DNA from: Pseudogymnoascus verrucosus
Lineage: Eukaryota
Direction: 5' to 3' (one strand)
Assembly (NCBI GenBank): GCA_001662655.1
Contig: KV460275.1
Length of the DNA stretch: 22,135 nt
Shown here: positions 1,188 to 19,940 of the stretch, piece by piece
How positions within the stretch are numbered: the first letter of the stretch is position 1
Layout of the letters: each line of letters opens with the position of its first letter
Position numbers and translations under genes: made by a program
The notes under the pieces: model-generated
Told to the model about the DNA's origin: nothing
The model's input: the letters and a program-made list of their open reading frames with translations, nothing else
Database searches by the model: none

Positions 1188-1741
1188 AAGAAGGTGCTTT
1201 GTCCTCAAAGCACGCAAGCCGAGTAGCTGCCGCGACGAGCCCTTAGTCGGGTTAGTAGGTGAGGTGCGGGCGCTAAGACTAGAATGCCCTTTGTTTGTCT
1301 AGAAGGCTGATGGTAGGCGGCCGTATAGGCACTAGAAGTGGTCTGAATCCGTTTGCGCAAAGTTGCATCTTTGTTGTGTGCGTGGCGATTAGTAGGCGAG
1401 GGTCCGTATTAGTATCGAATAGAGTCCGCGCGGTATGTGTGTCGTCGTAGAATTTCAATGTAAAGGGGAAATTCAGCGCTAACCCAATTTAGACGGCTTT
1501 GTTATAAGCTAGAATATGAATTCGAGCTTCGCCTACAACTTGTTGTTTTCTTCACAACAACGACGCTAACCCCCCCTCCTAAGACTAGTAAGTGGCCCTT
1601 CCAATGGTACAGCTAGATGCTAATAGGTTGTTTTTAGATACAAAAACACAACTAACGATTTAGTAGGTGACGGAACCGCGCTGGCGCGGTGGTGATAACT
1701 TAGGTTGGGCTGACGGGAAATCGTAGATTTCTAATTTAAAG

Positions 1742-2488
1742 ATGCTAGTTCCCCCTCCTCCCGGCGCCCTCACTGTGGCTTTCTGCCAGTAGTGTATGCG
1801 CTGCGTGCGCGCTAAAGGGTGCAAGAAGGACGGAGATCCCGCCGTCTCGTGTGTGTAGAGCTTAGAAAGCTCTAAGTGTGAGCGCTACGTGGCCTAACAC
1901 GCAACGTGTGTTCTAGTAGGTTCTCGTTTAGCTTTCGGTTTTGTGGTTTGTCTGTCTGCCCGTCGCTGACCTCTAGAGATAGATCTCCTAGTTTACTAGC
2001 CTAGAGTACTAGAAGCTCCTAGCTGCTAAGGCAGCAACCCCTCCCGTCCCTGCTGCCATTAAGGCCGCTACGGCGGAGATTAGGCGTGTGGTTACATTAG
2101 CTACTGCTAATATGCTAAAGTTCCGCTCCCCAGCCGAGCTTTCAGCCTATATGGAGAGTTGCGCCCTCTACGCTACCGTCGAGGACGGTCTAGAGGTAAG
2201 TTTTCCATTTCCCTTGTGTGTTTTTAGTTCTCGCGCTAACGACCGTAGCGGGTCCGCTAGGCCGTGGCCGTCGTGGGCTAGAAATCGGCCCTAATCCTAG
2301 TGAACTAGGAGAAGGAGATCGCTGCCCTTGATGGGGTGGCTTCTGCGGTGGATGCGGTGGGGGAGTTAGTAGAGAGGATCCCCGACGCCCTCGCCGCGGC
2401 GGCGAAGGTAGGCGGTGGTAGGGGGAAGAAGAGGAAGAGGGGGGCGGAGGAGGTGGAGGAGGAGGGGGTGGCCGTCGACCTTAGGTGA
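1742..2488 (+). pseudogene. Antisense, spliced accessory gene (exons 1742-1915, 1983-2195, 2249-2488; ~208 aa) encoding a Zn(II)2Cys6-like Cys-cluster protein with NLS-like motif
   Basis: ATG at 1742. Introns GTAGGT..GCTGAC..TAG (1916-1982) and GTAAGT..GCTAAC..TAG (2196-2248), both phase 0. Joined frame ends at TGA 2486-2488. The 8 internal stops are all TAG/TAA, as RIP produces. Exon 1 reads CMRC-x15-C-x8-CER(C>Y)-x6-C. The C-terminus reads GKKRKRGAEEVEEEG. Confidence 0.78.
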
Positions 2489-2534
2489 TAGGCCCTGTGT
2501 CAGAGGGAACTCAGGCGTGGTCTTTTGCGTGGGG

Positions 2535-5500
2535 TCACTTCAACCCTTCGTCTCTCATGGTAGTAGCCGCTTGTTACGACGCTAGTGAGACGTTTAGGAA
2601 GGGTGGCTTCTGCAAGGGCTACGGCTCTAAGGGTGCCCTAGCTTAGAGGGTGTTTAGTTTAGTGTCGTAGGTAGCAACGACGCTGTTTTCCTCTGCTTTG
2701 CCGTGCCTCTCGTGATCGTAGCTTAGTTTGCCTATCTCCCATTCCGTGATCTAGCTAGGTAGGTCCTACGGCAGTCCTAGTAGGTTTAGGTACTCCGCGT
2801 AGAACTCCCGGATTTTGTAGGGGGAGTTCTTAAAGTTTGAGGCGGGGTACCATTCTAGGTCCGGATCGTATCCGACCTAGGATACCTAGTATTAAAGTTG
2901 TTTTCGCCGGATCCTTACGGCGAGGATCTTTTCGACCTCCTACTCCTCTAGGCCGTCTACGACTTTGCTACTTAGCTTAGGCGCTACTTAACTAGGCAGC
3001 GGGTTATTCGGAGCCTTAATGAGTACGTCTAGAGAGAAGACACTGTGTATTTAGGAACCCTTCGGTAGGTCTAGTCGGAAGGCGTGTCCAATTTGTTCTA
3101 GTACCGTATAGGGTCCGACCCATTGTTGCCCTAGCTTACGGCTAGGGCGGTGATTTTTCAGATTCTTAGTTGATAGGTAAACCTTGTCTCCTACGTCCTA
3201 GTCAATGGCTCGTTAGTATCGATTCGCGTATTTAGACATATCCTCTTGTGCTTTAGCCATGTTCTCCTTTGCGTAAATCTATGCGGAGTGCATGCGGTTT
3301 GCTACTACTTTAGCTTCCTTCTAGTTCATGATTTCCCTAGGGGTCGTGGCTTTTGGGGTTTCCTAGTCCTAACTAGTGCGCGGATTAGTTCCGTACTTAA
3401 GTCGGTAGGGGGTCATTCCGATCGAGGCATGGGGAAGGGTCATTTGCACCCGATCCATGATGGGAATGAGCTCGCTCTAGTTATCCTAGTAATGTGATAC
3501 GAAGGGCCTTAGTCTCTAATCGATATACCGATTCATGATTTCCGTCTACCCGTCGGTCTGCTTGTAATAGGCTGTTGACAGCTTAATCTTAACCCTTATA
3601 ATTCGGTAGAACTCTCGCTAGAAAGCTGATATGAATTAGGGTCCGCAATTACTAATGATCGACTCTAGGGTGTGTCCGAATCGATATATCCATTCGATGA
3701 ATAGCTGCGCCATTTAGTGGGCATCGGTAGTCTTATGACACGGTATGGACACCGAACCCTTACTAAGTCGGTCCATGAACATAAGGATGCTGTCGAATCC
3801 GTGTTTATCCTTTAGGAATTCCTTAAAGTCCATCGTTAGGTGTTGCATGGGGTATTCTAGTACCGGTAGGGGGTATAAGAAGCCTTGCTGCTTCGTGACG
3901 TTAGTGTAAGTGAGTCGGCACGTCACGTAGTTACGTACGTATCGGAGACAATCCGCTTCCATTCCGACCTAATGATACTTTAGGGCGAGTAACTGATAAG
4001 TTTTTCTGCCACTAGGGTGGGCTACTAATACTTAATCGTGTGCTTCCCGTATGAGTTTCGTACATAACTTAGTGTGCTGGGTTACGTACAGTCGACCCTT
4101 ATATAACAATAGTTGGTCCTTCATTATAAACCCATTAGGTAGGGGGTCTTTCGTGCGAGTGTCGGTAAACGACCTCCTATTATCCGCGCAGAGCGCTTCT
4201 ATTAGGTCAAAGGGGACCTAGGTGTTTAGGGCGTCCATTGCATTGATTGAGGCCACGTACGTTTGTGCTAATTCGGCACTGATTTAGGGGTGTAGTTGGG
4301 CTAGGCCTAAAAGCACCCTCGCATAGCTGTCTAGTTTGACCTTCTGCTGTGTAATTAGGTCTTGCTCTCTTCGGCTTAGTATATCTGCCTTCTGATTGTT
4401 CTTGCTAGCTATATATGTAATATAGAAGTTGAAGTTAGAGAGTAGCTCTATCTACCGAACCTGCTTCGCCATAAGAACCTTCGTCGTCATGAAGTATTCT
4501 AGCGATCAGTAATCGGTGTAAACGTCGATTTAGTGGCGTACCGATGTCAATTCTAGCCTCCATTTTGCGAACGCTTTTACGATGGCGAACAGTTCCTTGT
4601 CGTAGATCTCCTAATTGATCTCGTGCCTAGATAGGACGTGACTGTAGAAGCTTACGGGATACCATTGCTTATCTAGGTGTTCCTAAGAAAGAACACTAGC
4701 TACGACTCCGTTAGAGGAGTCTGTTTCCAGCTTTGTAGGCAATTCGGGGTTGAAGTGGTAGAGCGCCTACACGGCTAAAAGCTGTCGGCACATTTCTTTA
4801 AAAGCGTTCTTACATTCGTCAGTCCATAGAAACGGTTCTGAGGGGCTGGTGATAGTAGTAAGAGGCTTGGCTATTTTCCCGAAATTTCTGATAAATTGGC
4901 AGTAGAAGCCGTAGAATCTAAGGTAAGACTTCACGCCTATGACAGTTGTTGGCCGGATCCAATTCCGGAGGGGTTCGATCTTCTCGGGATCCGCTTCGAC
5001 ACCGGTAGTAGTTAGGATATAGCCTAAATACTTTGTCTAGGTTACGTTAAACTTGCATTTCTTAATGTCGGCTTGTAGTCCTGCTTCTTAAAGCCGTTAT
5101 AGGACCTTATGTACGTGGTCCATGTGTTCTGCAGGGTCCTTAGAGTAGATTAGGATGTCGTCTAGGTAGGCAGTACAGAAGTCGTCTAAGTATTGCATAA
5201 GAACGTCGTTCATATACCTCTAATAGGTTGTAGGGCCGTTCGTTAGACTAAACGGCAGCACTTTGCATTTGTAGGATCCATATCGAGTTTGGAAGGTTGT
5301 GTACTCTTCGGAGTTGGGGTCCATTCGTATACGATGGAAGGCTTGCCTAATGTCTAGCTTCGTGAAGATTTTTGCTTTCAACACCCGTCCTAGTAGTTCG
5401 TCGATACGTGGGATAGGGTAGGGGTCGTTATGGGTAAGTCCGTTCAACTTCTAGTAGTCGATACAAAATCTTAGTTTGCCATCTGCCTTCTTTACGAACA

Positions 5501-6770
5501 GTATAGGGGAGGCAAACGGGCTATTGCTATTGACTATAAAGCCCTTCTCGAGGTTCTCTAATAGGTATTGCTTAGTTGCCTTAAGCTCTTCGGTGCTTTG
5601 TCGGTATAGTGGCGAAAAGGCATTTAGTAAAGGGGCTTCTAGTTGTATCTTGTAATCGTATATGCAATGTAGGGGAAGCTGATTAGATTCCGACTTTAAG
5701 AAGACATCGGAATAGTTGCAGTGCATATGCGGAAGCTTGTCCTAAATAAGGCGGAGCGTTTCTTCGTCCTCAGCCGCTTCCCTCTCCTAGATGATCTAGT
5801 CGATCTCGTAGATGCTTGTCGTGAAGAACTTAGAGTCGCTTTGCATCATCTCATAGTAGAAAGCGTTTGCGCTAATCTCGCAAATTTAGACTAGCGTGAA
5901 GCTGCGTAATAGGGTCTAGCGTCGGGAGGGAGAGACAACTCTGCTCCTCCCATGGTTCTTTCTTTTATATGCGGATGGTCCGTTTCTTAGAGGTTTCGCC
6001 TCTACTTGTCCTAAGGGTCTGTCTTTATAGGTTTCTACGGGCAAGGCTCGTGTCCTTAGGGTTTTGGGGTGTGGGTAGGTCGTTCCCTCGTCTTACACCG
6101 AGCTCGGTAGGGTGATCATAATAGCGTCACGATGGGCCGTTATCACTTTCATTAGTATCGAGCGTCTGCCCTCACGTCGTCTGTCGTCATGGTCGATGGC
6201 ATCGTCCCGCTAGTTCGCATCCGATTAATGGGCGGGGTGACGTATAGACAGTTCACGCGAGTGGTAGGCTAAGGTGATCTCTTTGCTCTAGCTAGGAGTA
6301 GGCGGGTACTCCTTTAGCCATACTAGCCAGCTCTTTGCAGAGTCGAGTAGGATTCAGAAGCAGCTAAAAAGCTTCTTCCTAATTATTACATCTTGCGCTC
6401 TAAGATCTAGGAGCACAAAGGGGCAGTTATAGATTTAGCGTCCTTTGACTGTTAAGTGTAACCGAATATACTCCGACACGTAGCTTTAGATATTTTGCTA
6501 AAATCCACGTATGGGTATAGAGTAGGGCAGTTTCTATATAGGGCTCTAGAGCGCTTTTAACAACCGTTACGCGAAAGGCTTATTAATGACGAGGTAGCCA
6601 TTTGCTCCTATGTCTACGAGTGACTTCGTTTGCACCCTGAGTCCGTTCATACTTAGGGTTGTATCAACGAGAAATTAGGAGCCTCCTAAGAGCTCTCGTA
6701 AATCTAGTCCTTACAGATTACATTTGCATAGACCTAGGAAGGAGCCTTTCCCTAGGCCTCGTCGTTTTCC
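2535..6770 (-). pseudogene. pol: pol polyprotein (aspartic protease, RT, RNase H, integrase, chromodomain) with RIP stops; 3' end uncertain (TAA 2643 or TGA 2535)
   Basis: One frame throughout: LVD(T>I)GANGY (6606-6614), [40 protein letters not shown] (5157-5168), LETDSS, EIYDKELFAIV, HLTMDF..MDRLSK, WVGPY, and chromodomain EVEKIL..GYDPDLEWYPASNF (~2800-2945). ORF-track hits 3714-3962, 5220-5447 and 5451-5726 are fragments of it. Confidence 0.96.
6731..6770 (-). promoter_or_regulatory. Putative -1 ribosomal frameshift signal (gag/pol)
   Basis: G GAA AAC (6764-6770), 5-nt spacer, then 10-bp stem ggcctaggga/ttcctaggtc (6749-6758/6731-6740). pol is in the -1 frame relative to gag. Confidence 0.65.
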
Positions 6771-7960
6771 TCTAGGGACGCATCCGACTAGTAGGCGACT
6801 GCTTCCTCCCACTGCTCTTCGTCCTTAGGGGCTTTGCGATCAATCTCCTTAACGGTGGGGTTAAGCGGGCATTTGTCTTGGAAATGGCCCGGCTTGCTGC
6901 ACTTGAAACAGTTCCTAGACGTAGCTGGCACAGCGGTCTGCACGCGGCCTATAATGTCCAGCTTAGGGGCCGTAGGCGTAAAGGGAGTCCTCTAGAAGGA
7001 AACTAGAGGGTTTCTTGTCTGCCTTAGTAGCTAGGCCTTTCTAGGGTCCACGGGCGTGAACCTAGATGAGCTTAGGCGGGCGGGTCCTTAGGAGCTCGAC
7101 TCGCTGCTCTTAGACGGGAAGCTTAACTCGTTGTTCTAGCGCTGCTCCTAATCGAAGGCGGTGAGTTCTTAGACCATGGTGTAGTAGTCTCCCTTCCATT
7201 GACTTTTGATAACTGCTACGTGGCTACGGAATTAAGGGGTCAACTTGTTCTATATGTACCAAAACCATTCCAACTTAGTAACCTGTCCTATAATAGCTAC
7301 ACTTTAGAAGCGAGCTTTAAACTCTAAGAAAGTCTCGTTTGTATGTCCTTTCTCTCCCATTTAGAGGTCGTCAAAGAGGTTCTAGGCCTGTTCCGTTTCG
7401 TTGCTAGTGAGGTAATATGAACCTAACAGGTCCATCATCTCGTCGGCACTCCGAAACCCGTGGGTCGCAGATAGGTATTAGGGTTTGAGGTATTTCTTTG
7501 CTAGGCTAGTCGTAGTCCCCTATATCAACGCTCTTCTCGAGACGTCGGTAGGGTAGTGATCCTCATTAACTACGAGGCGGTCCTAAATGGACGCGCTCCA
7601 TTACATAAAGGTATGTTCTATCCCATCGCTAAGCGGCGTAATCTTCTTAGAGATGGTGGATTTCTTATAGCAATTCGGAGGGTCTTTGGAATACATCCTT
7701 AGAATCGATGGAGAACGAGTGTTTTAAAGAGGCAGCAACTGAACTGTCTTAGGGGTGTTTCGCATAGGGGAAGTTCGTTGCTCTGCAACTTCGACGGTGT
7801 CTACTAGTAGCGTGGACGGAATTCTAGTCTAGGTTGCCGCTAGGTTAGCTATCATTTCCTTAATCTCTTGCATCTAGATCTCGAGGTTTGCCATTCGATC
7901 TAGTATGTCATCGGTAGGTGTAGCAGTCGTAGCTATAGCAGTAGTTTATCTCGTTGACAT
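6752..7960 (-). pseudogene. gag: gag (~402 aa) with RIP stops
   Basis: ATG at 7960 is in frame with zinc knuckle CFKCSKPGHFQDKC (~6870-6910) and with stop TAG 6752-6754 after ENDEA. In-frame ATGs at 8005 and 8014 are alternative starts. Confidence 0.88.
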
Positions 7961-8356
7961 TCGTGACGGTTAACCATCATTGTCTTAGGGGATGTTTAAG
8001 GTCATTTTCCTCATATTAGTTCGGGGGTGTATTAGTGTCGATACGAAAGAGTTTGACTTCTAGTAGCTCGTAGCTATCAACACTCTTGTTTACAATTGCC
8101 TCTATGCTTAAGGGGGTTCTTAAGGATCTCGTATCCTATTTGGCGCTAACGCGTCAGCGACTTTACTAGCTTGCTCTATAGGATCAAACCCTGATCTACT
8201 AGTTGTCTGTGAGTTCTATAGGGTCACGGCTATTTGAAGTCGTTAGGTCTCTACTTCGAAATGTCACTAAGTCGCGGTCGGTAGTGTTTCGACAGTTCTC
8301 CTAAGTCGTTCTAGTTGTGGGATATTATTTACGTACGGCCGTCCCTAGTAGGTGTG

Positions 8357-8369
8357 ATCTTTTTTGTAT
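8357..8369 (-). other. Self-priming primer-binding site
   Basis: atcttttttgtat (8357-8369), 2 nt from the LTR edge, is the exact reverse complement of atacaaaaaagat (8465-8477) inside the 5' LTR. Confidence 0.85.
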
Positions 8370-8371
8370 AA

Positions 8372-8670
8372 TGTAAGGACATAGGGCACTGTATCATAAG
8401 AAGTTGCATATGGGAGTGCAAGTCAGATAGAAGTCGGTGCAATCCTATAGGTCTACTACGAAGGATACAAAAAAGATGAAGGTGTAACCCTATATGGCTG
8501 TTCCCTTAAAATACCCGAAACCGCTCCGACTTAGCTAGCTCCCTGTTTGCCTAAGGCTTCCTTACGTTATGTGCCTAAGGCTGTTAGTTGCAACTGACCT
8601 GTAACGGCCCCGAGTCTCAATGGCGCCACGTAACGGCCGTAACTACCCTGAGTAAGGAGGCATCCTTATA
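8372..8670 (-). repeat. 5' LTR of younger family-A element
   Basis: 299 bp. About 18 differences from 875-1173 by manual count, all transitions. Terminal CA changed to TA. Confidence 0.97.
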
Positions 8671-9062
8671 GCTAATATGCTAAAGTTCTGCTCCTTAGCT
8701 AAGCTTTTAGCCTATATAGAGAGTTGCGCCCTCTACACTACTATTAAGGACAGTCTAGAGGTAAGTTTTCTGTTACCCTTATATGTTTTTAGTTCTTAGG
8801 CTAACAACTATAGTAGGTTTATAAGGCTGTGGCCCTTATAGGCTAGAAGTTGGCCCTAATCCTAGTAAACTAGGAGAAGGAGATCGCTGCCCTTAATAGG
8901 GTAGCTTCTATAGTAGATGTAGTAGGGGAGTTAGTAGAGAGGATCCCTAACGCCCTTACTATAGTAGTAAAGGTAGGTAGTAGTAGGGGGAAGAAGAGGA
9001 AGAGGGGGGTAGAGGAGGTAGTAGAGGTAGAGGAGGAGGGGGTAACTGTTGACCTTAGGTAA
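8671..9062 (+). pseudogene. 3' half of the antisense accessory gene of the older family-A copy
   Basis: Homologous to 2106-2488. Retains GTAAGT donor (8761), GCTAAC branch point and KKRKR codons. Has an in-frame 9-bp insertion. Stop TGA reads TAA. Confidence 0.7.
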
Positions 9063-9108
9063 TAGGCCCTATGTTAGAGGGAACTTAGGTGTAGTCTTTT
9101 GCATAGGG

Positions 9109-12100
9109 TTACTTTAACCCTTTGTCTCTTATAGTAGTAGCTGCTTATTGTAACGCTAGTAAGACGTTTAGGAAGGGTAGCTTCTATAAGGGCTATAGCT
9201 CTAAGGGTGCCCTAGCTTAGAGGGTGTTTAGTTTAGTGTTATAGGTAGCAATAACGCTGTTTTCCTCTACTTTGCTATGCCTCTTGTAATCGTAGCTTAG
9301 TTTGCCTATCTCCTATTCTATAATCTAGCTAGGTAGGTCCTATAGCAGTCCTAGTAGGTTTAGGTACTCTATATAGAACTCTTAGATTTTATAGGGGGAG
9401 TTCTTAAAGTTTAAGGCAGGGTACCATTCTAGGTCTAGATTATATCTAACCTAGGATACCTAGTATTAAAGTTGTTTTCACTAGGTCCTTATAGCAAGGA
9501 TCTTTTTAACCTCCTACTCCTCTAGGCTATCTACAACTTTGCTACTTAGCTTAGGCGCTGCTTAACTAGGCAGTAGGTTATTTAGAGCTTTAATGAGTAT
9601 GTCTAGAGAGAAGACATTATGTATTTAGGAACCCTTTAGTAAGTCTAGTTAGAAGGCGTGTCTAATTTGTTCTAGTACTATATAGGGTCTAACCTATTAT
9701 TGCCCTAGCTTACAGCTAGGGAGGTGATTTTTTAGATTCTTAGTTAATAGGTAAACCTTGTCTCCTACGTCCTAGTTAATAGCTTGTTAGCGTTAATTTA
9801 TATATTTAGACATATCCTCTTATGCTTTAGCTATGTTCTCCTTTGTGTAAATCTATATAGAGTGCATGTAGTTTGCTACTGCCTTAGCTTCCTTCTAGTT
9901 TATAACTTCCCTAGGGGTTATAGCTTTTAGGGTTTCCTAGTCCTAACTAGTACGTAGATTAGTTCTATACTTAAGTTAGTAGGGGGTTATTCTAATCAAG
10001 GCATAGTAAAGGGTCATTTATACCTAATCTATAATAGGAATAAGCTTGCTCTAGTTATCCTAGTAATATGATACAAAGGGCCTTAGTCTCTAATTAATAT
10101 ACTGATTTATAATTTCTATCTACCTGTTAGTCTGCTTATAATAGGCTATTAACAGCTTAATCTTAACCCCTATAATTCAGTAGAACTCTCGCTAGAAAGC
10201 TAATATGAATTAGGGTCTACAATTACTAATAATCAACTCTAGGGTGTATCTAAATTAATATATCCATTTAATGAATAGCTACGCCATTTAGCAAGCGTTA
10301 GTAGTCTTATAACATAGGATAGACACTAAACCCTTACTAAGTTAGTCTATAAACACTAGGATGCTGTTGAATCTGTGTTTATCCTTTAGGAATTCCTTAA
10401 AGTCCATTATTAGGTGTTATATAGGGTATTCTAGTACTAGTAAGGGGTATAAGAAGCCTTGCTACTTCGTAACGTTAATGTAAGTAAGTTGGCATGTTAC
10501 ATAGTTATGTATGTATTAGAGACAATCTGCTTCTATTCTAACCTAATGATACTTTAGGGCAAGTAACTAATAAGTTTTTCTACTACTAGGGTAGGCTACT
10601 AATACTTAATCGTGTGCTTCCTATATAAGTTTCATATATAACTTAGTGTGCTAGGTTATACACAGTTGACCCTTATATAACAATAGTTAGTCCTTTATTA
10701 TAAACCTATTAGGTAGGGGGTCCTTTATGCAAGTGTTAGTAAACGACCTCCTATTATCTATATAGAGCGCTTCTATTAGGTTAAAGGGGACCTAGGTGTT
10801 TAGGGCGTCTATTGCATTAATTAAGGCCATGTACGTTTGTGCTAATTTAGCACTAATTTAAGGGTGTAGTTAGGCTAGGCCTAACAGCACCCTTACATAG
10901 CTGTTAAGTTTAACCTTCTATTGTGTAATTAGGTCTTGCTCTCTTTAGCTTAGTATATCTGCCTTCTAATTGTTCTTGCTAGTAGTATATGTAATAGAGA
11001 AATTAAAGTTAGAGAGTAGCTCTATCTACTAAACCTACTTTGCTATAAGAACCTTCATTGTTATAAAGTATTCTAGTAATTAGTAATTAGTGTAAACGTT
11101 GATTTAGTAGCATACCAATGTTAATTCTAGCCTCTATTTTACAAACGCTTTTATAATAGCAAACAGTTCCTTATTATAAATCTCCTAATTAATCTTATGC
11201 CTAGATAGGACGTAACTATAGAAGCTTATAGGATACCATTGCTTATCTAGGTGTTCCTAAGAAAGAACACTAGCTACAACTCTGTTAGAGGAGTCTGTTT
11301 CTAGCTTTGTAGGCAATTTAGGGTTGAAGTAGTAGAGCGCCTACATAGCTAAAAGCTATTAGTGCATTTCTTTAAAAGCGTTCTTACATTCGTTAGTCTA
11401 TAGAAACAGTTCTAAGGGGCTAGTAATAGTAGTAAGAGGCTTAGCTATTTTCCTAAAATTTCTAATAAATTAGCAGTAGAAGCTGTAGAATCTAAGGTAA
11501 GACTTTACGCCTATGATAGTTGTTAGCTAGATCTAATTCTAGAGGGGTTTAATCTTCTTAGGATCTACTTTAACACTAGTAGTAGTTAGGATATAGCCTA
11601 AATACTTTGTCTAGGTTACGTTAAACTTACATTTCTTAATGTTAGCTTATAGTCCTACTTCTTAAAGCTGTTAAAGGACCTTATATATATAGTCTATATG
11701 TTCTATAGGGTCCTTAGAGTAGATTAGGATGTTGTCTAGGTAGGTAGTATAGAAGTTGTCTAAGTATTACATAAGAACGTTGTTTATATACCTCTAATAG
11801 GTTATAGGGCTGTTTGTTAAGCTAAACGGCAGCACTTTACATTTATAAGATCTATATTAAGTTTAGAAGGTTGTGTACTCTTTAGAGTTAGGGTCTATTT
11901 ATATACAATGGAAGGCTTGCCTAATGTCTAGCTTTATAAAGATTTTTGCCTTTACTACCTGTCCTAGTAGTTTGTTAATACATAGGATAGGGTAGGGGTT
12001 GTTATAGGTAAGTCTGTTTAACTTCTAGTAGTTAATACAAAATCTTAGTTTACTATCTGCCTTCTTTACAAACAGTATAGGGGAGGCAAACAGGCTATTG

Positions 12101-13344
12101 CTATTAACTATAAAGCCTTTCTTAAGGTTCTCTAATAGGTATTGTTTAGTTGCCTTAAGCTCTTTAGTGCTTTATTAGTATAGTGGTGAAAAAGCATTTA
12201 GTAAAGGGGCTTCTAGCTATATCCTATAATTGTATATATAATGTAAGGGAAGCTAATTAGATTCTAACTTTAAGAAGACATTAGAATAGTTACAGTGCAT
12301 ATACAGAAGCTTGTCCTAAATGAGGTAGAGCGTTTCTTTATCCTTAGCTGCTTCCCTCTCTTAGATAATCTAGTTAATCTTATAGATGCTTGTTATAAAG
12401 AACTTAGAGTCGCTTTACATTATCTTATAGTAGAAAGCGTTTGCGCTAATCTTGTAAATTTAGACTAGTGTAAAGCTATGTACTAGGGTCTAGCGTTAGG
12501 AAAGAGAGAAGACTCTACCCCTCCTATAATTCTTTCTCTTATATGTAGATAGTCTGTTTCTTAGAGGTTTTGCCTCTACTTGCCCTAAGGGTCTGTCTTT
12601 ATAGGTTTCTATAGGTAAGGCTTATGTCCTTAGGGTTTTAGGGTGTAGGTGGGTTGTTCCCTTGTCTTGCACTAAGCTTAGTAAGGTAATTATAATAGCG
12701 TTATAATAGGCTATTATCACTTTCATTAGTATTGAGCGTCTACCCTTACGTTGTCTATTGTTATAGTTAATGGCATTGTCCTACTAGTTTGCATCTAATT
12801 AATAGGCAGGGTGACGTATAGACAGTTCACGCAAGTAGTAGGGCAAGGTAATCTCTTTACTCTAGCTAGGAGTAGGCAGGTACTCCTTTAGCCATACTAG
12901 CCAGCTCTTTATAGAGTTAAGTAGGATTTAGAAGTAGCTAAAAAGCTTCTTCCTAATTATTACATCTTACGCTCTAAGATCTAGGAGCATAAAGGGGTAG
13001 TTATATATTTAGCGTCCTTTAACTATTAAGTGTAACTAAATATACTCTAATACGTAGCTTTAGATATTTTGCTAAAATCCACATATAAGTACAGAGTAGG
13101 GCAGTTTCTATATAGGGCTTTAAAGCGCTTTCAACAGCTATTACATAAAAGGCTTATTAATAACAAGGTAGCCATTTGCTCCTATGTTAGTAAGTGACTT
13201 CGTTTACACCCTAAGTCCATTTATACTTAGGGTTGTATCAATGAGAAATTAGAAGCCTCCTAAGAGTTCTTATAAATCTAGTCCTTATAGATTACATTTG
13301 CATAGACCTAGGAAGGAGCCTTTCCCTAGGCCTTGTCGTTTTCC
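9109..13344 (-). pseudogene. pol: pol of older family-A copy
   Basis: Same length as and colinear with 2535-6770. Many more stops. Confidence 0.93.
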
Positions 13345-14534
13345 TCTAGGGACGTATCTAACTAGTAGGCAACTACTTCCTCCTACTACTCCTTGTCCTT
13401 AGGGGCTTTGCAATCAATCTCCTTAACAGTAGGGTTAAGTAGGCATTTGTCCTAGAAATGGCCTAGCTTGCTATACTTAAAACAGTTCCTAGACGTAGCT
13501 AGCACAGTAGTCTGTACGCAGCCTATAATGTCTAGCTTAGGGGCTATAGGCATAAAGGGAGTCCTCTAGAAGGAAACTAGAGGGCTTCTTATCTGCCTTA
13601 GTAGCTAGGCCTTTCTAGGGTCTATAGGCGTAAACCTAGATAAGCTTAGGCAGGTAGGTCCTTAGGAGCTTAACTTGCTACTCTTAGACAGGAAGCTTAA
13701 CTCGTTATTCTAGCGCCACTCCTAATTAAAGGCAGTAAGTTCTTAGACTATAGTGTAGTAGTCTCCCTTCTATTAGCTTTTAATAACTGCTATGCAGCTA
13801 TAGAATTAAGGGGTTAACTTGTTCTATATATACTAAAACCATTCTAACTTAGTAACCTGTCCTATAATAGCTGCACTTTAGAAGCGAGCTTTAAACTCTA
13901 AGAAAGTCTTGTTTATATGTCCTTTCTCTCCTATTTAGAGGTTGTTAAAGAGGTTCTAGGCCTGTTCCGTTTCGTTGCTAGTAAGGTAATATAAACCTAA
14001 TAGGTCCATTATCTCGTTAGCACTCTAAAACCTATGTGTTGTAGATAGGTATTAGGGTTTAAGGTACTTCTTTACTAAGCTAGTTGTAGTTCCCTATATT
14101 AACACTCTCCTTAAGACGTTAGTAGGGTAGTAATCCTCATTAACTATAAGGTAGTCCTAAATAGACGCACTCTATTACATAAAGGTATGTTCTATCCTAT
14201 TGCTAAGTGGCGTAATCTTCTTAGAGATAGTGGATTTCTTATAGCGATTTAGAGGGTCCTTAGAATACCTCCTTAGAATCGATAGAGAATAAGTGTTTTA
14301 AAGAGGCAGTAACTAAACTGTCTTAAGGGTATTTTGTATAAGGGAAGTTCATTGCTCCTCAACTTCAACAGTGTCTACTAGTAGCGTAGACAGTATTCTA
14401 GTCTAGGTTGCTACTAGGTTAGCTATCATTTCCTTAATCTCTTGTATCTAGATCTTAAGGTTTGCTATTTAATCTAGTATGTTATTAGTAGGTGTAGTAG
14501 TTGTAGCTATAGTAGTAGTTTATCTTCTTAACAT
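13326..14534 (-). pseudogene. gag: gag of older family-A copy
   Basis: Colinear with 6752-7960 (1209 nt). ATG retained at 14534. Confidence 0.86.
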
Positions 14535-14945
14535 TTGTAACAGTTAACTATCATTGTCTTAGGGGATGTTTAAGGTCATTTTCCTTATATTAGTTTAGGG
14601 GTGTATTAGTGTTAATACAAAAGAGTTTAACTTCTAGTAGCTTATAGCTATTAACACTCTTGTTTACAATTGCCTCTATACTTAAGGGGGTTCTTAAGGA
14701 TCTCGTATCCTATTTAGTGCTAACGCATTAGCGACTTTACTAGCTTGCTCTATAGGATTAAACCCTAATCTACTAGCTATCTATAAGTTCTCTAAGGTTA
14801 TAGCTATTTAAAGTTGTTAGGTCTTTACTTTAAAATGTCACTAAGTTGCAGTTAGTAGTGTTTTAACAGTTCTCCTAAGTTGTTCTAGTTATAGGATATT
14901 ATTTAAGTACAGCTGTCCCTAGTAGGCGTAATCTTTTTTATATAA

Positions 14946-15244
14946 TGTAAGGACATAGGGCACTATATTACAAGAAGTTGCATATAGGAGTGTAAGTTAG
15001 ATATAAGTTAGTACTATCCTATAGGTCTACTATAAAGGATATAAAAAAGATAAAGGTGTAACCCTATATAGCTGTTCCCTTAAAATACCTAAAACTGCTC
15101 TAACTTAGCTAGCTCCCTATTTGCCTAAGGCTTCCTTACATTATGTGTCTAAGGCTATTAGTTGCAACTGACCTACAATAGCCCTAAGTCTTAATGGCGC
15201 TATATAACAGCTGTAACTACCCTAAGTAAGGAGGCATCCTTACA
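14946..15244 (-). repeat. 5' LTR of older family-A copy
   Basis: 299 bp, tgtaagga...tccttaca. Adjacent PBS atcttttttatat (14931-14943) is complementary to 15039-15051. Confidence 0.96.
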
Positions 15245-15623
15245 TTATCCTAATAAGGAGGTCTATAAAGACTACTAAGAAAGCCTATTATAAGTATTAG
15301 AGTAACTAGAGCTAGAGGATAACTATAAAGGTCTATAGCCTATAGAAATCTAGGCTATAAATAGCTACTACTTTAATAGGGCTACTACTAATAAGGAAGG
15401 GGACAAACTATAGACATAAGACATATCTAAGATTAATTACCCCTAGTATAAATTTATACTATAGTTATAGTGTTATACTTAGGACTACTTATAGCACTAC
15501 CTTAAGAAGATAGACTATGCTTACTTCCTTACTAGATAAAGACTAGTCTACTATAACTAGGAGGTAATAAAGGGGATCCTTATAAAGTAATAATCTACTA
15601 GATAATTAAAGTTAAAAAACTAG
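15245..15623 (+). pseudogene. gag: 3' end of family-B gag
   Basis: Frame ends tta aaa aac tag (15612-15623) with slippery heptamer A AAA AAC (15614-15620). The protease frame is -1 to it. Confidence 0.62.
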
Positions 15624-17038
15624 GAGTCCTTAATAGTAGGCTACTAATAAGTAATAATAAGAGGCTTAGTAAGGAATAGCTATATACTATAGAGGGTAGT
15701 ATATAGCTATATATAGTTACTAAGATATAATAGTAACACCTCTAAGTAATAATTAACTTAGGAGTAATAGGCAACTTTATAATAAAGAAAGTAGTAGACT
15801 CTTAAGGTTTTAAGACATAATTAAAAACTAAACCTTACCTACTAATAGTTATAGATAGAGAACCTATCTTAACTAATAAGGGAATAGTAACCTATAAGAT
15901 AGTCCTATTAGAAATAGTTATACTATATAGATATAAGGAAATAATCTAATTTAACATTATATATATAGATAATTATATATATATCCTTAGTATACTATAG
16001 CTTAAGAAATATAATCCCTAGATTAACTAGTAGAATAAGAAAGTTATAATAAGCTAGTATATATATAAATAACAAACAGACATGCTATAATAGGAGAAAC
16101 CCTCCTAAGGCTAATATAAGGTGTAAATAACCTCTATAGAGCCTAGTAACCTAGCCTAGGCACCCTTACTAATAAATATACTAGTAGAGTATAAGGAATA
16201 TAAGTAGCTATTCTAGGAAGGCCCTAAGAATAAGGCACTTCCTAAGTACTAACTATAGGATTATATAATACCTTTAAAAGAAGGAAAGAGTCTACTATTT
16301 AGACTAATATACTAGATGTTAGTAGATAAGTTAAAACTGTTAAAGGAATATATTAATAATAACCTTAAGAAAGGATTTATTAGACTATCTAAATCTCTTA
16401 TAAGAAGCCTAATGTTATAAGTTCCTAAGAAGGATAGAAGTAAACAACTATATATAGACTATTAAGCATTAAATAATATAATAATAAAGGATTAATACAC
16501 CTTACTATTAATTAATAAGTTATATAATAGATTCTAAGGAGCTAAGATCTTTACTAAGCTAGATCTATATAGTATATATAACCTAATCTAGATAGCTAAT
16601 AGTAAGGAGTAGAAAATAGCATTCTATACCTACTATAGCCTATTTAAATATTAAGTTATACCCTTTAGGCTAACTAATGCCTATACATCTATATAATGCT
16701 TAATAAATAACACTTTATATAAATACCTAGATATATTTACTATTATTTACCTAGATGATATACTAGTATACTTAGTAAATAAGGACAAACATATATAGTA
16801 TGTTAAGCTTATCCTAAGAAAGCTAAAGGAATACAACCTACTATTAAAGCTAGAGAAGTATAAGTTCTATAAAAGCTAAGTTAAATTCTTAGGTTACATT
16901 ATTAGAACGTATAGTATTAAAATAGACTAAGTAAAGGTTATAGTAGTATTAGAATAGCTAATACTAACTATAGTTAAGGAAGTATAAGCTTTTTTAGACT
17001 TTACTAACTTTTACTATTAGTTTATTATAGGATATTCT

Positions 17039-17527
17039 TATTATAGTAGGTTTCTATAACCCCTATACTAACACATTAATTAATGGGGTAATCTAGGTTA
17101 TAGTGTTTTAAATGTAGATTATAAGGATATAGGTTTGCTTAAGAACGCTCCTAGGAGAAGTCTTCTAAGAGAGCTCTCCTAAAAGTAATAGGCTCCTAGA
17201 AGAGTTCTTCTAGAAGAGTTAGTCTCCTAGAAGAACTCTCCTAGAAGAGGAACTCTTATAGAAGAGAATTCACATAATTAGATATATTAGATATATAGAT
17301 ATATTATTATATCCATTAATATCCCTATATCTATTAGGTATAATGCTACTATATAAGTAAATAGTTAGTTCTTAGATAGGAGCTTTATGCTTAACTTAAC
17401 ATAGTATTTATTATATACTATAACATGTTTTATAAAAGCCTTTATGTCTAATCCTATACCTCCTCTATTAAGTAAACTAATGTAATGAAACCTCTATAAG
17501 TCTTATAGTTTAGGACCTAGCGTTATA
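17039..17527. mobile_element. Solo LTR of a third family (489 bp)
   Basis: Flanked by perfect 5-bp TSD attct (17034-17038, 17528-17532). Ends tattata../..cgttata fit RIP of TG..CA. Removing it restores pol ..GYS|KVA..L.ELTRKD. Confidence 0.88.
17141..17267. repeat. Degenerate tandem array (~8 copies of ctcctagaagag-like unit) in the solo LTR
   Basis: Repeated ctcctagaaga/cttctagaaga units at roughly 14-20 bp spacing. Confidence 0.8.
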
Positions 17528-19272
17528 ATTCTAAGGTAGCCTAACTACTTATAGAGCTTACTAGGAAGGATCTTATATTTAAATAGATAGATAAAGTAGA
17601 GGCTACCTTCTAGGAACTTAAGACAAAGTTTATAGAGGCACCTATCCTTACTACATTTAACCCTATAAAGAAGATTATCCTTAAGATAGACTCTTCTAAC
17701 TTTATAATTAGAGTATATCTAAATTAGCTATATAAGAATAGTAAGTTTAAACTAATTATATACTACTCTAAGAAACTATTACCTATAGAGCTTAACTATA
17801 ACATCTATAATAAGGAGCTACTAGCTATTATTATTACCTTTAAGTAATAGTAAGTATATCTTAAGGAATCTACCTATACTATATAAGTATAAATAGATTA
17901 TATAAACCTTATATACTTTACTATAACTAAGGTTCTAAACTATAGATAAGTCTACTAGATAGAAACCCTTATAGCCTATAACTTTATAATAACCTATTAT
18001 AAAGGCTCTAAGAACATAAGAGTAGATGCCCTTAGTAGATAGACTAACTACATTAGCCTAAAGGTAGAAAGACCTAGAGTAATATTAAAGAAAACAGATA
18101 TAAGAATATAGTATAATAAGTTACTAGATACTACTACTTCCTAGGTATAAGGAAGTAAGTAGAAATAGTAGTAAGAGAGTATAATATTTATAGTAAGGTG
18201 AAATCTAATAGGCACTTACCTTATAGACAGCTTAAGTTAACACTAGTACTAAAAGGAGTATAGAAATTAATAGCATTAGACTTTATTATTAAGCTACTAC
18301 CCTCTAAAGACCTATTAATAGAAGTAGAATATAACTCTATCCTTATTATTATAGAAAGACTTATAAAATATAGGAAATTTATACTATATCTAGAAGCTAG
18401 TAATGCTAAGGCACTTATATATACCTTTATTTAAGTTATATTAGCTAATTATAAGATGCTAGAAGAAATTATCTTAGATAGAGACAAGCTCTTTACTTTA
18501 AAATTCTAGAAATCATTAATGGCTCTATTAGGAATAAATCATAAGCTATTAATAGCTTTTTATCCTTAGATAGATAGCTAAATAGAAAGATTAAATTAAA
18601 CCCTTAAATAGTACCTATAAAGTTATGTTAATTATTAGTAGGATAACTAGGTTTAGATTTTACCTATTATATAGTTTATATATAACAGTGTAATAATAGA
18701 AGTAATAAAAGTCTTACTATTCTTTACTAATTATAGCTACTAGCTAGAAGTATATAGGTAACTAAGACTAGATAAAGCATAAGCTAAACAAGCCCTAATT
18801 ATAGTAGAATAACTAAAATCGTTCTATAAACAACTTATAATAGACATCTAATTCTTAAATGAATAATCTACTATATATATAAATAAGAAGTATAGTATAG
18901 AACCTACCTTTAAGGAGAGGGATAAAGTATACCTACTCTAGAAATACATTAAAACAAAATGACTAAGTATAAAGTTAGACTTTAAGAAATTAGGACTATT
19001 TAAAATATTAGATAAGGTTAGCTTAGTTAATTATAGGCTATAGCTACTTAAGAACTCTAAACTCTACCTAGTGTTTTATATCTTGTTATTAGAACTAGTA
19101 AGAGGGAATACCCTAATTATAACTAATACTAAACTCTAGCTTAAGAATAAAATTATTAAATATAAGGTTAAAGTAATCCTAGATAGAAGGTTAGTAGGAT
19201 GCTAAGAGGAGTTTTTAATAAAATAGAAAGGTTATAAACCTATAGATAACTTATAAGAAATAGTAGGAAACC

Positions 19273-19866
19273 TTAGTTACCTAGAGTTACTAGTAGGGTT
19301 CTACTATTAATACCCTAGTAATTAAAGAACCTAGGGGATAAGGCTAATAAGTAGTTATATTTAGAGATAATACTCCTAGAGTTAGTTATAAAAGGGCTAG
19401 TAAGGTAAGTATAGGCTTTAGCTTTATACTACTTACATTCCTCTACTTCCTCTAGCTTATCTAAGGTCTTTAGGCTATAATAAAGTATCTTAGTACCTTA
19501 GGTCTTAAGAAGATCCTACTACTACTTAAGGTAGTTAAGATAGGCTATAGCTATAGCTATAGCTTTATAAGTTATATAAGTTTTAAGATAAAGATAGTCC
19601 TCTTCTTTCTATAGTAACTACTAGTTACTAGTAGAGGGACTAGAGACGTTATAGTTATAGGAATTTAAATGAATACATTTATTACATTATTTAGAAGAAG
19701 TAGAGGTAAGGTAGTAAAGACCTTATTTCTTATAGTAGGAATAAGAAGGAATTTTAACCCCTTTATAGGTTATTTAGTTAGTAAGAAGTTTATACTCTTT
19801 AATTTTAGTATGTTTAAATAAAGATATAGTTATAGCCTAACCTACTCTATAGATAGTAGTAGGCAT
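19273..19866 (-). pseudogene. Antisense accessory ORF of family B (~197 aa): Zn(II)2Cys6-like cluster plus predicted coiled coil
   Basis: ATG at 19866. In-frame codons TAT-x2-TAT-x6-TAC-x8-TGT-x2-TGT-x7-TAT (19743-19651) revert by TA->TG to C-x2-C-x6-C-x8-C-x2-C-x7-C. Downstream literal KEED..LKTLDKLEEVEE. The stop position is inferred. Confidence 0.68.
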
Positions 19867-19935: not shown

Positions 19936-19940
19936 CCTAG

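What the first reader, a model, noticed from the sequence alone, without database searches (positions are those of the whole stretch)
1742..19866. Shared architecture: gag-pol-chromodomain plus a convergent antisense Cys-cluster gene as a recurrent third gene of fungal chromoviruses
Seen: two families with dissimilar LTRs place a ~200-aa gene in the same slot and orientation. The second halves of the clusters are alike (C-x8-C-x2-C-x6/7-C; ESSKCER(C) vs SSK(R)CN(E)C), while first-loop length (15 vs 6) and intron content (2 vs 0) differ. Inference: an ancient, fast-evolving accessory module or repeated capture. It could be a self-regulation or counter-defence system, analogous in logic to plant VANDAL VANC proteins. 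Its convergent transcript could also make dsRNA. Function is not shown by the sequence.
Basis: inference. Interest (0 to 1): 0.85.

Follow-up and report, generated by a model that had tools for sequence, protein, structure and literature searches.

The report
Antisense zinc-cluster gene in fungal retrotransposon
One of the two dead fungal Gypsy-type jumping genes in this window really carries a backwards-facing, intron-containing extra gene for a small cysteine-cluster protein, a layout already known from the grey-mould element Boty, while the claimed second copy in the other element cannot be shown.

Summary
The window is a nest of RIP-mutated transposons. A complete family-1 chromovirus (875-8670, minus strand, 299-bp LTRs, 5-bp target duplication) sits inside an older family-1 copy. 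That copy abuts a 5'-truncated, heavily RIPped family-2 element, followed by a Fot1/pogo-like DNA transposon.

Family 1: confirmed. Between pol and the polypurine tract lies a plus-strand gene of three exons (1742-1915, 1983-2195, 2249-2488) with two canonical introns. Spliced, it is collinear with an intact 208-aa Pseudogymnoascus protein. It matches 184 of 208 residues, and all 24 differences are RIP-type transitions. A profile search found 46 relatives, all in Pseudogymnoascus. They form at least four clades and keep C-x2-C-x11-15-C-x8-C-x2-C-x6-C. The protein also has a long helix and, in this clade, a KKRKR motif. Pfam finds no Zn2Cys6 domain.

Family 2: not demonstrated. The cluster exists only if four Tyr are read as Cys. 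RIP-aware profile alignment scores 18.4 bits, against 19.5 for decoys. There is no database relative. The pattern is nevertheless unusual, so I give it about 0.35.

Antisense genes in this slot are already published (brtn of Boty; plant aORFs). This is a new member of a known kind, and its function is untested.

The parts
875..8670 (-). E1: complete family-1 chromovirus (7796 bp), lightly RIPped (GC 0.48)
   Evidence: The LTR pair and the 5-bp target duplication come. Pfam domains come and composition.
875..1173 (-). E1 3' LTR (299 bp), with TGTAAGGA...TCCTTACA termini
   Evidence: Three-way alignment of the LTR copies and coordinates read. It holds GGCCGTTACG twice, 29 bp apart.
8372..8670 (-). 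E1 5' LTR (299 bp)
   Evidence: It is 94% identical to the 3' LTR, and 100% identical once transitions are collapsed.
870..874 (.). Left copy of the 5-bp target-site duplication (ACTAA, RIPped from GCTAA). The right copy is GCTAA at 8671-8675.
   Evidence: The uninterrupted site in the sister copy reads ..CTGCTAATATG.. at 2103-2113.
1174..1187 (-). Polypurine tract AAGGTAGGGGGTAG, directly upstream of the 3' LTR
   Evidence: read on the minus strand.
1742..1915 (+). Accessory gene exon 1 (codons 1-58). The six-Cys cluster is encoded at 1793-1909.
   Evidence: tblastn of P0002 residues 1-57 onto 1742-1912 and the spliced model.
1916..1982 (+). Intron 1, 67 nt, GTAGGT ... CTGAC ... TAG. An alternative acceptor lies 9 nt upstream.
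   Evidence: The frame shift of +1 between exons 1 and 2 is exactly restored.
1983..2195 (+). Accessory gene exon 2 (codons 59-129)
2196..2248 (+). Intron 2, 53 nt, GTAAGT ... CTAAC ... TAG
2249..2488 (+). Accessory gene exon 3 (codons 130-208 plus stop). It encodes the long-helix part, KKRKR and an acidic tail.
2702..6800 (-). E1 pol: RT 5013-5495, RNase H 4431-4826, integrase 3567-4073, SH3 3021-3191, weak chromodomain 2799-2939
   Evidence: Coordinates are computed from the residue ranges of that call.
6700..8368 (-). E1 gag region with a CCHC knuckle (about 6866-6913), in a different frame from pol
1..874 (-). E2, left part: 3' internal region of an older family-1 copy. It holds exon 1 (about 506-679) and the first part of exon 2 (747-874) of its accessory gene on the plus strand. 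Its PPT and 3' LTR lie off the window.
   Evidence: E1 is inserted into exon 2 of this copy.
8671..15244 (-). E2, right part: rest of accessory exon 2 (8671-8760), exon 3 (about 8814-9062), pol, gag and the 5' LTR (14946-15244). GC 0.36.
15245..20305 (+). Family-2 Ty3/gypsy element, 5'-truncated, GC 0.27. RT 16421-16903, RNase H 17596-17970, SH3 18921-19094, chromodomain-like stretch about 19150-19330 (by eye).
19200..19866 (-). The Cys/Tyr pattern starts at 19743, and the best profile match is at 19660-19713.
20306..22135 (-). Fot1/pogo-like DNA transposon (not part of the finding). It bounds family 2 on the right.
   Evidence: DDE_1 at E=4.5e-17. 32-nt terminal inverted repeats, 97% complementary.

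Best explanation
The window holds RIP-inactivated, nested copies of a Pseudogymnoascus-type chromovirus (family 1). This lineage carries a third gene between pol and the polypurine tract, on the strand opposite to gag-pol.

Shown:
- The gene has three exons and two canonical introns, and encodes 208 aa.
- It lies inside the LTR-bounded element.
- The two copies here are dead.
- Intact relatives exist only in Pseudogymnoascus, as a multi-copy, diversified family with six conserved cysteines.

Inferred mechanism:
- The protein binds zinc through a Gal4-like but aberrant six-Cys cluster (C-x2-C-x11-15-C-x8-C-x2-C-x6-C).
- It enters the nucleus (KKRKR in this clade).
- It pairs through its long helix.
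- It acts as the element's own DNA-binding regulator, probably on LTR-driven transcription.

The family-2 'counterpart' in this window is at best a weak trace. The general architecture is a further example of the antisense aORF already described for Boty (brtn) and for several plant elements.
For: Element anatomy:
- The copies differ almost only by transitions. 820 of 898 substitutions are G>A or C>T in E2, mostly in CpG and CpA contexts. RY-collapsed identity is 98-100%.

Gene model:
- P0002 maps onto the three exons.
- The spliced reading is collinear with P0002 and matches 184 of 208 residues. All differences are RIP-type.

Family:
- The first search gave 2 hits among 2961 candidates.
- The search of 1.84 billion representatives gave 6 hits at E<=0.001.
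- The profile search gave 46 hits at E<=1 among 7999 scored. All carry Pseudogymnoascus names, and 32 of them are P. destructans.
- 27 of 53 fetched proteins keep the full six-Cys pattern. 7 have it broken and 19 are fragments without the N-domain.
- The N-domain is the best conserved part. There are at least 4 supported clades.

Same slot in diverged clades:
- The tails of 5 proteins map to 2484-2667 at 70-81% identity.

Zinc-cluster lead:
- 2 of the 46 hits bear UniRef's name 'Zn(2)-C6 fungal-type domain'.
- Short helices start at or one residue after each C-x2-C in both AF2 models.
- The long helix 108-183 has pLDDT 80-90.

Precedent:
- brtn and plant aORFs.
Against: - Pfam finds no Zn_clus (or any other credible) domain in 0 of 40 members, even at E<=10.
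- A profile search of PDB sequences finds no Gal4-type protein. The only hit is Dad2 at E=0.29.
- Foldseek finds nothing at E<=0.001.
- The Cys domain is modelled with low confidence, pLDDT 48-75.
- The first loop (11-15 residues) breaks the canonical x6 spacing.
- KKRKR is absent from the other clades.
- No expression or splicing evidence was obtained.
- Zinc binding, DNA binding and dimerisation are all untested.
- Many family members show RIP-like damage, so part of the 'family' is decaying copies rather than selected genes.
- I could not see the genomic context of the relatives. Their residence in elements rests on the window, on the 5 read-through tails, and on the multi-copy pattern.
Confidence: 0.6

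Rival explanations
1. Both families carry homologous antisense Cys-cluster genes, so the module is an ancient, recurrent third gene of fungal chromoviruses. The family-2 copy is simply RIPped beyond easy recognition.
For: - The only place in the window, apart from the two true gene copies, where a six-position [C/Y] pattern contains a real C-x2-C is 19743. It lies in the right slot and orientation. The loose pattern gave 3 decoy hits in about 44,000 codon positions over six frames.
It scores 18.4 bits, and 7 of 300 codon shuffles reach that score.
- C>Y changes of just this type are seen in the RIPped E2 copy of the true gene.
- The candidate frame has the fewest stops of the six frames: 15 against 18-41. 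Its stop density is like that of the RIPped pol domains.
- Earlier unchecked notes of this scan report similar genes in at least 5 other genomes. These are leads only.
Against: - Decoy stretches of the same window score 18.7 and 19.5 bits.
- After allowing for three or six frames, the shuffle result is not significant.
- The stop count equals the random expectation.
- None of the 53 family proteins hits the family-2 region.
- No database relative was found among 210 candidates.
- The pattern needs four Tyr read as Cys.
- No member of the real family has a first loop of 6 residues.
Confidence: 0.3
2. The gene matters mainly as RNA. Convergent transcription with gag-pol gives overlapping 3' ends and double-stranded RNA that feeds silencing of the element. 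The protein would be secondary or dispensable.
For: - The gene stop (2486-2488) lies about 310 bp from the end of the chromodomain (2799). Where pol really stops is unclear, because its frame shows candidate stops from 2768 down to 2483.
- Botrytis Gypsy elements are strong small-RNA sources (passages of PMC8365987).
Against: - Six cysteines, the surrounding motif and two frame-restoring introns are kept across clades that are only 49-76% identical in the N-domain. That points to selection on the protein.
- No RNA data were obtained.
Confidence: 0.15
3. The gene is a passenger. It was captured once from the host by this element lineage and multiplied by hitch-hiking, with no role in the element's life cycle.
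For: - The family is confined to one genus in all three searches, which fits a recent capture.
- Many copies are damaged.
Against: - No single-copy host homologue outside the multi-copy family was found.
- At least four diverged clades keep the gene and its cysteines.
- For members whose tails could be mapped, the slot is the same.
Confidence: 0.15
4. There is no gene. The reading frames and 'introns' are chance features of a non-coding pol-LTR spacer.
For: The window copies are full of stops (8 in E1).
Against: - The reading is collinear with independently annotated intact proteins of 208 aa. All differences are RIP-type.
- There are 46 relatives.
Confidence: 0.03

Closest known systems
[quoted passage not shown] 2011, Virology 417:248). 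The paper itself is not held. I know it from passages in PMC7264820, PMC8365987, PMC4227169 and PMC5987419.
   Same: - The host class is the same (Leotiomycetes; by my own knowledge).
- The element type is the same (gag-pol with a chromodomain).
- The slot (between pol and the 3' LTR) and the antisense orientation are the same.
- The function is unknown in both.
   Different: - Sequence relationship could not be tested, because no BRTN sequence was reachable with these tools.
- A search of 1.84 billion representatives with the window's reading found only 6 hits, and every one that carries a source name is from Pseudogymnoascus.
- Whether BRTN has a Cys cluster or introns is not stated in the passages I saw.
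Plant aORF-3R: antisense ORFs between pol and the 3' LTR of Grande1, RIRE2, Retand and PvRetro13 (review PMC7264820, passages)
   Same: The slot and orientation are the same. These ORFs are conserved within their families, and their function is unknown.
   Different: They occur in plant, mostly non-chromovirus lineages. No sequence relationship was sought or found.
Gal4-type Zn(II)2Cys6 binuclear-cluster transcription factors (Pfam PF00172; consensus spacing recalled from my own knowledge)
   Same: - Six cysteines, with basic residues after the first C-x2-C.
- The second half, C-x8-C-x2-C-x6-C, lies within the canonical ranges.
- A helical region follows, with an acidic C-terminus.
- 2 of the 46 relatives carry UniRef's Zn(2)-C6 name.
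   Different: - The first loop is 11-15 residues instead of 6.
- 0 of 40 members match PF00172.
- There is no PDB sequence or fold match.
HBZ of HTLV-1 (antisense-encoded nuclear bZIP regulator of a retrovirus; recalled from my own knowledge, not tested)
   Same: The logic is the same: a retroelement encodes on its minus strand a small nuclear, helix-mediated regulator.
   Different: The fold class, the host kingdom and the promoter (3' LTR in HBZ) all differ. This is analogy only.
DUF3716 (PF12511) cysteine-rich proteins, for example REP9-1 and REP9-2, carried by a class II transposon of Zymoseptoria tritici (PMC8232023, passages)
   Same: They are small fungal Cys-containing proteins of unknown function carried by transposons. 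An Atlas look-alike cluster in which 28% of members carry DUF3716 ranked 4th at score 0.77, which is a lead only.
   Different: 0 of 40 members match PF12511. The transposon class also differs.
VANC anti-silencing proteins of Arabidopsis VANDAL elements
   Same: They are element-encoded, fast-evolving, sequence-specific accessory proteins.
   Different: They belong to DNA transposons of plants. No evidence here bears on anti-silencing.

Membership tests
Chromovirus (Ty3/gypsy with chromodomain), family 1 | LTRs with TG..CA ends, a target-site duplication and a PPT | tested here: met
   299-bp LTRs, a 5-bp TSD and a PPT.
Chromovirus (Ty3/gypsy with chromodomain), family 1 | pol order RT - RNase H - integrase, with a C-terminal chromodomain | tested here: met
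   RVT_1, RT_RNaseH_2, Integrase_H2C2, rve and SH3_Tf2-1 appear in that order. Chromo is only weak (E 0.037, below the cut-off), as expected for a RIPped copy.
Chromovirus, family 2 | RT - RNase H - integrase - chromodomain | tested here: inconclusive
   RVT_1, RT_RNaseH_2 and SH3_Tf2-1 were found. There was no Pfam Chromo or integrase-core hit. A chromodomain-like stretch was seen by eye only.
Antisense additional ORF between pol and 3' LTR (aORF-3R; brtn-type layout) | The gene lies inside the element, between pol and the PPT / 3' LTR | tested here: met
   The gene (1742-2488) lies between the PPT (1174-1187) and the end of the chromodomain (2799) in TSD-flanked E1. It is also present in E2.
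Antisense additional ORF between pol and 3' LTR (aORF-3R; brtn-type layout) | Orientation opposite to gag-pol | tested here: met
   gag-pol is on the minus strand and the gene is on the plus strand.
Antisense additional ORF between pol and 3' LTR (aORF-3R; brtn-type layout) | Present in most copies of the family and conserved like other element proteins | tested here: inconclusive
   Both window copies have it. There are 46 relatives in at least 4 clades with conserved Cys. The genomic context of the relatives could not be read, except through 5 read-through tails.
Antisense additional ORF between pol and 3' LTR (aORF-3R; brtn-type layout) | The gene is transcribed (and here spliced) | tested here: inconclusive
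   No run on record as RNA holds the stretch. The contigs laid showed no joints.
brtn protein family | Sequence homology to BRTN | not testable with these tools
   No BRTN sequence could be fetched and Zhao et al. 2011 is not held. The searches returned only Pseudogymnoascus proteins.
Zn(II)2Cys6 fungal binuclear cluster (PF00172) | C-x2-C-x6-C in the first half | tested here: not met
   The first loop is 11, 12 or 15 residues in 27 of 27 intact patterns.
Zn(II)2Cys6 fungal binuclear cluster (PF00172) | C-x5-12-C-x2-C-x6-8-C in the second half | tested here: met
   C-x8-C-x2-C-x6-C in 27 of 53 proteins. The other 26 are damaged or fragments.
Zn(II)2Cys6 fungal binuclear cluster (PF00172) | Match to the family profile | tested here: not met
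   0 of 40 members match at E<=10. There is no Gal4-type chain in the PDB profile search. 2 of the 46 hits carry UniRef's automatic Zn(2)-C6 name.
Zn(II)2Cys6 fungal binuclear cluster (PF00172) | Binds two zinc ions and CGG-type DNA half-sites | not testable with these tools
   This needs biochemistry. The LTR repeat GGCCGTTACG x2 is only a candidate site.
DUF3716 (PF12511) | Match to the family profile | tested here: not met
   0 of 40 members match. The only hint is an Atlas look-alike at 0.77, below the tool's 0.9 lead threshold.
Family-1 accessory protein family (Pseudogymnoascus six-Cys proteins), for the family-2 candidate | Significant profile similarity | tested here: not met
   18.4 bits, against decoys of 18.7 and 19.5 bits. 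7 of 300 shuffles reach the score in one of six frames. 0 of 53 proteins hit the region by tblastn.

The most novel reading that the evidence does not exclude
Fungal chromoviruses widely carry their own antisense, spliced, zinc-cluster-type DNA-binding regulator. brtn of Boty, this Pseudogymnoascus family, the trace in family 2 and the cases noted elsewhere in this scan would all be diverged descendants of one ancient third gene. It would evolve so fast, in step with each element's LTR or with host silencing, that sequence searches see only genus-level families.
Probability: 0.2. Interest if true: 0.75.

Novelty: new member of a known kind. Interest (0 to 1): 0.42.

Why it matters
LTR retrotransposons are usually taken to need only gag and pol. 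A conserved, intron-containing antisense gene for a probable nuclear metal-binding protein, kept through the diversification of an element lineage, suggests that the element brings its own regulator.

Such a regulator could explain LTR specificity, copy-number control or an interplay with genome defence in fungi. The roughly 46 'hypothetical proteins' of Pseudogymnoascus, including the bat pathogen P. destructans, would then be re-annotated as transposon genes rather than host genes.

The case also gives concrete material (natural intact proteins and a candidate LTR repeat) for testing what antisense aORFs do. That question has been open since they were described in plants and in Boty.

My searches found no paper that links Zn2Cys6, LTR retrotransposons and antisense genes (0 papers). 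None of the 6 papers listed for P. destructans, Gypsy and transposable elements appears, from its title and the start of its abstract, to deal with such a gene. I did not read their text.

Tried and rejected
- **Whole genome.** None is held for this window, so copy counts and un-RIPped family-2 copies could not be sought.
- **RNA evidence.** No RNA holder is listed. I laid four runs of uncertain kind (X1, X2, X3, X7) at 80% likeness. Contigs cross both introns unspliced and there are no joints. The runs may be DNA, so this says nothing on expression.
- **Structure.** Two AF2 models gave mean pLDDT 71 and 61. The Cys domain is poorly resolved, as expected without metal. Foldseek against the PDB gave only helical noise with E>=2.7. 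I did not run further fold searches, because the domain of interest falls below the confidence at which matches mean anything.
- **Homodimer test of the helical part.** I handed the job to complex prediction 14 times, each time unchanged. The queue was full every time and the job never ran. Dimerisation therefore stays an inference.
- **ESM Atlas.** The best named look-alikes are hypothetical Ascomycota clusters at 0.79-0.89. A cluster with DUF3716 scored 0.77. All are below the tool's threshold for more than a lead.
- **Max-over-ancestors RIP-aware scoring.** I rejected it because off-frame background was too high (32-58 bits). I replaced it with a likelihood-ratio version. The RIPped E2 copy, used as positive control, rose from 34.7 to 80.5 bits.
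- **Tandem-array idea.** I first considered a tandem LTR-internal-LTR array for 1-15250. I rejected it when the 5-bp duplication showed a nested insertion.
- **Earlier notes for this genome.** There are none.
- **Literature.** Zhao et al. 2011 is not held. Muszewska et al. 2011 (PMC3248453) does not contain the words antisense, additional ORF, third ORF, zinc or opposite. Its two passages on 'additional domains' concern chromodomains and complex nested insertions. Figure S1 of PMC8365987 is said in the Methods to draw further additional ORFs in Botrytis elements. It is a PDF supplement that I could not see, and it may bear on the recurrence claim.


Full report
**What the window is.**
Self-comparison finds three repeat relations:
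- 14-875 matches 1250-2111.
- A 300-bp unit recurs at 872, 8369 and 14943.
- 2106-8668 matches 8671-15242, at 84-94% identity.

With C/T and G/A collapsed, these identities become 98.4-100%. The copies therefore differ almost only by transitions. In the long alignment, 820 of 898 substitutions are G>A or C>T in the second copy. The context is mainly CpG (243 of 372 C>T) and CpA (111 of 372). TA/AT indices are 1.6-2.3. This is the signature of repeat-induced point mutation (RIP), an inference from established knowledge of RIP.

The 300-bp unit is an LTR with TGTAAGGA...TCCTTACA ends. The copy at 875-1173 is preceded on the minus strand by a polypurine tract. The pair 875-1173 / 8372-8670 is flanked by ACTAA / GCTAA, and the undisrupted sister sequence has one GCTAA.

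So E1 (875-8670) is a complete element that inserted into an older copy of the same family, E2 (1-874 plus 8671-15244). This is not a tandem array. E2 abuts a third, far more degraded element of another family from 15245 onward (GC 0.27). That element lacks its 5' LTR and most of gag. From 20306 to the window's end lies a Fot1/pogo-like DNA transposon, with DDE_1 at E=4.5e-17 and 32-nt inverted ends.

**Family 1 is a chromovirus on the minus strand.**
Read through with X at the stops, pol gives the following:
- RVT_1 at 1.5e-32.
- RT_RNaseH_2 at 2e-23.
- Integrase_H2C2 at 2.9e-9.
- rve at 6.7e-5.
- SH3_Tf2-1 at 2.3e-10.
- A weak Chromo match at 0.037.

Gag has a CCHC knuckle.

**The family-1 antisense gene is real.**
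No Pfam family matches it. A database search with the read-through translation found an intact 208-aa protein of Pseudogymnoascus sp. VKM F-103, P0002.

P0002 maps onto the window in three collinear pieces. The two gaps between them are introns with canonical fungal signals:
- 67 nt, GTAGGT..CTGAC..TAG.
- 53 nt, GTAAGT..CTAAC..TAG.

These introns shift the frame by +1 and +2, exactly as needed. The spliced window reading has 208 codons and matches P0002 at 184 of 208 positions. All 24 differences are C>T or G>A changes, including 8 premature TAG/TAA stops.

RIP also created two false cysteines (codons 15 and 27, Arg in P0002) and destroyed one (codon 49, Cys to Tyr). The older copy E2 holds the same gene, more damaged. 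E1 is inserted into E2's exon 2.

**The protein family.**
- A full scan of 1.84 billion representatives with the window's reading gave 6 hits at E<=0.001.
- A profile of seven members gave 46 proteins at E<=1 among 7999 scored candidates.
- By their source names all 46 are from Pseudogymnoascus. 32 are from P. destructans and 14 are from seven other strains.
- Of the 53 proteins fetched, 27 keep the six-Cys pattern. The first loop is 12 residues in 20, 15 in 6 and 11 in 1. Two of the six '15' cases are artefacts of an extra upstream Cys.
- 7 have the N-domain with a cysteine lost, and 19 are fragments without the N-domain.
- Identity to P0002 is highest in the N-domain (49-76%) and lowest in the C-terminal third (16-64%).
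- A maximum-likelihood tree of 33 members shows at least four well-supported clades, each multi-copy in P. destructans.
- Five relatives were annotated past their stop codons. Those tails match the window's flank 2484-2667 at 70-81% identity. So members of diverged clades lie next to the same pol-proximal sequence. That flank is better conserved than the gene itself.

I could not read the genomic context of the relatives directly.

**What the protein looks like.**
Pfam finds nothing credible in 0 of 40 members, including Zn_clus and DUF3716. A profile search of PDB sequences finds no zinc-cluster protein.

AF2 with a 40-row alignment gives mean pLDDT 71:
- The Cys domain is uncertain (55-71). 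It shows two short helices, each beginning at or one residue after a C-x2-C.
- Helix 108-183 is confident (80-90).

A second model of a shorter member is worse, at 61. Foldseek finds no match.

The second half of the cluster, the basic residues after the first C-x2-C, the helical region and the acidic tail all resemble Gal4-type Zn2Cys6 factors (consensus recalled from my own knowledge). UniRef names two members that way. But the first loop of 11-15 residues, and the failure of the profile, mean I do not file it as a member. In the window's clade a KKRKR motif precedes the acidic tail, and other clades lack it.

I infer a nuclear, zinc-binding, probably dimeric DNA-binding regulator of the element. 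None of these steps is shown. A candidate cis-element is the direct repeat GGCCGTTACG x2 in each family-1 LTR. It gave 5 matches in the window against 0.62 expected.

**Family 2.**
RT, RNase H and SH3_Tf2-1 are found on the plus strand, in three different frames. A chromodomain-like stretch is seen only by eye.

That equals the shuffled expectation (16.4 +/- 3.6). It is also the same density as the genuine but RIPped pol domains, and it is the lowest of the six frames. So stops cannot decide the question.

The text SSK*CNKC is present. The pattern C-x2-C-x6-C-x8-C-x2-C-x7-C appears only if four Tyr are read as Cys. That kind of change is seen in E2's copy of the true gene.

I built a likelihood-ratio alignment that allows RIP reversal. 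It lifts the RIPped E2 copy from 34.7 to 80.5 bits. The candidate gets 18.4 bits, while decoy stretches of the window reach 18.7 and 19.5. This is not significant over six frames.

None of the 53 family proteins hits 15247-22135. The candidate has no database relative among 210 word-sharing candidates.

In its favour, a loose six-position [C/Y] pattern occurs only 6 times in about 44,000 codon positions. Two of these are the true gene copies, three are decoys, and one is this site. This site alone contains a real C-x2-C. I put the chance that family 2 once carried a related gene at about 0.35.

Its LTRs cannot be delimited. A possible PPT (AAGGTAGGG, 20026-20034) shares its core with that of family 1.

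**Comparison with what is known.**
An antisense gene between pol and the 3' LTR of a fungal chromovirus is published: brtn of Boty in Botrytis and Sclerotinia. I read this in passages of PMC7264820, PMC8365987, PMC4227169 and PMC5987419. The original paper is not held.

The same layout is known in plants as aORF-3R, and its function is unknown. A relationship to BRTN could not be tested.

My searches found no paper that joins Zn2Cys6, LTR retrotransposon and antisense (0 papers). None of the 6 papers listed for P. destructans, Gypsy and transposable elements appears, from its title and the start of its abstract, to deal with such a gene. I did not read their text.

Earlier, mostly unchecked notes of this scan describe similar antisense Cys-cluster genes in chromoviruses of at least 5 other genomes. 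They agree with this reading but are not independent evidence.

**Verdict.**
The interpretation as a fast-evolving element-borne module is reasonable within this lineage. Recurrence across families is not shown here. The kind of feature is already known, so this is a new, well-defined member whose function is untested.

Noticed in passing
window 20306-22135: A Fot1/pogo-like DNA transposon lies on the minus strand. DDE_1 (PF03184) scores E=4.5e-17 at about 21032-21458. It has 32-nt terminal inverted repeats (20306-20337 and 22104-22135, 97% complementary). The window ends exactly at the outer repeat.
   Followed up: partly
window 870-874, 8671-8675, 747-878 and 8671-8760: The young family-1 element E1 inserted into exon 2 of the accessory gene of the older family-1 copy E2. 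This gives a three-level nest with family 2 (family 2 > E2 > E1), as expected for chromodomain-guided integration into repeats.
   Followed up: yes
window 1103-1112, 1132-1141, 8600-8609, 8629-8638: Each family-1 LTR holds a direct repeat GGCCGTTACG twice, 29 bp apart. There are 5 matches within 1 mismatch against 0.62 expected. It is a candidate binding site for a CGG-reading zinc-cluster protein, and it is untested.
   Followed up: partly
window 8350-8371 (minus strand): No TGG-type tRNA primer-binding site follows the family-1 5' LTR. The sequence there starts TTATACAAAAAAGATC. The site may be RIPped, or the priming mode may be different.
   Followed up: no
window 16904-17599: Family 2 has about 500 extra bases between RT and RNase H compared with family 1. 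They include a short tandem duplication (17141-17185 / 17200-17247) and a CCHC-like CFKC text. RT, RNase H and integrase are in three different frames.
   Followed up: no
window 20026-20034 and 1174-1187: The putative polypurine tract of family 2 (AAGGTAGGG) shares its core with that of family 1 (AAGGTAGGGGGTAG), although the two elements are otherwise alignable only in RT (4889-5213 against 17027-16703 when transitions are collapsed).
   Followed up: no
window-wide; alignment of 2101-8669 with 8666-15246: The RIP-like mutation here prefers CpG (243 C>T) over CpA (111 C>T). This differs from the classical CpA bias of Neurospora.
   Followed up: partly
window 2484-2667: The flank between the accessory gene's stop and the chromodomain is better conserved among diverged relatives (70-81% in read-through tails of 5 proteins) than the accessory protein itself (16-64% in its C-terminal third). 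It may encode the C-terminal tail of pol on the other strand. The true pol stop could not be fixed, with candidates from 2768 down to 2483.
   Followed up: partly
proteins P0003, P0010, P0016, P0029, P0050 (public annotations): Several public gene models fuse pieces of this transposon gene to unrelated host-like parts (an acetyltransferase-like N-terminus, a BTB protein, an AMP-binding enzyme). These are probably annotation chimeras at insertion sites.
   Followed up: no
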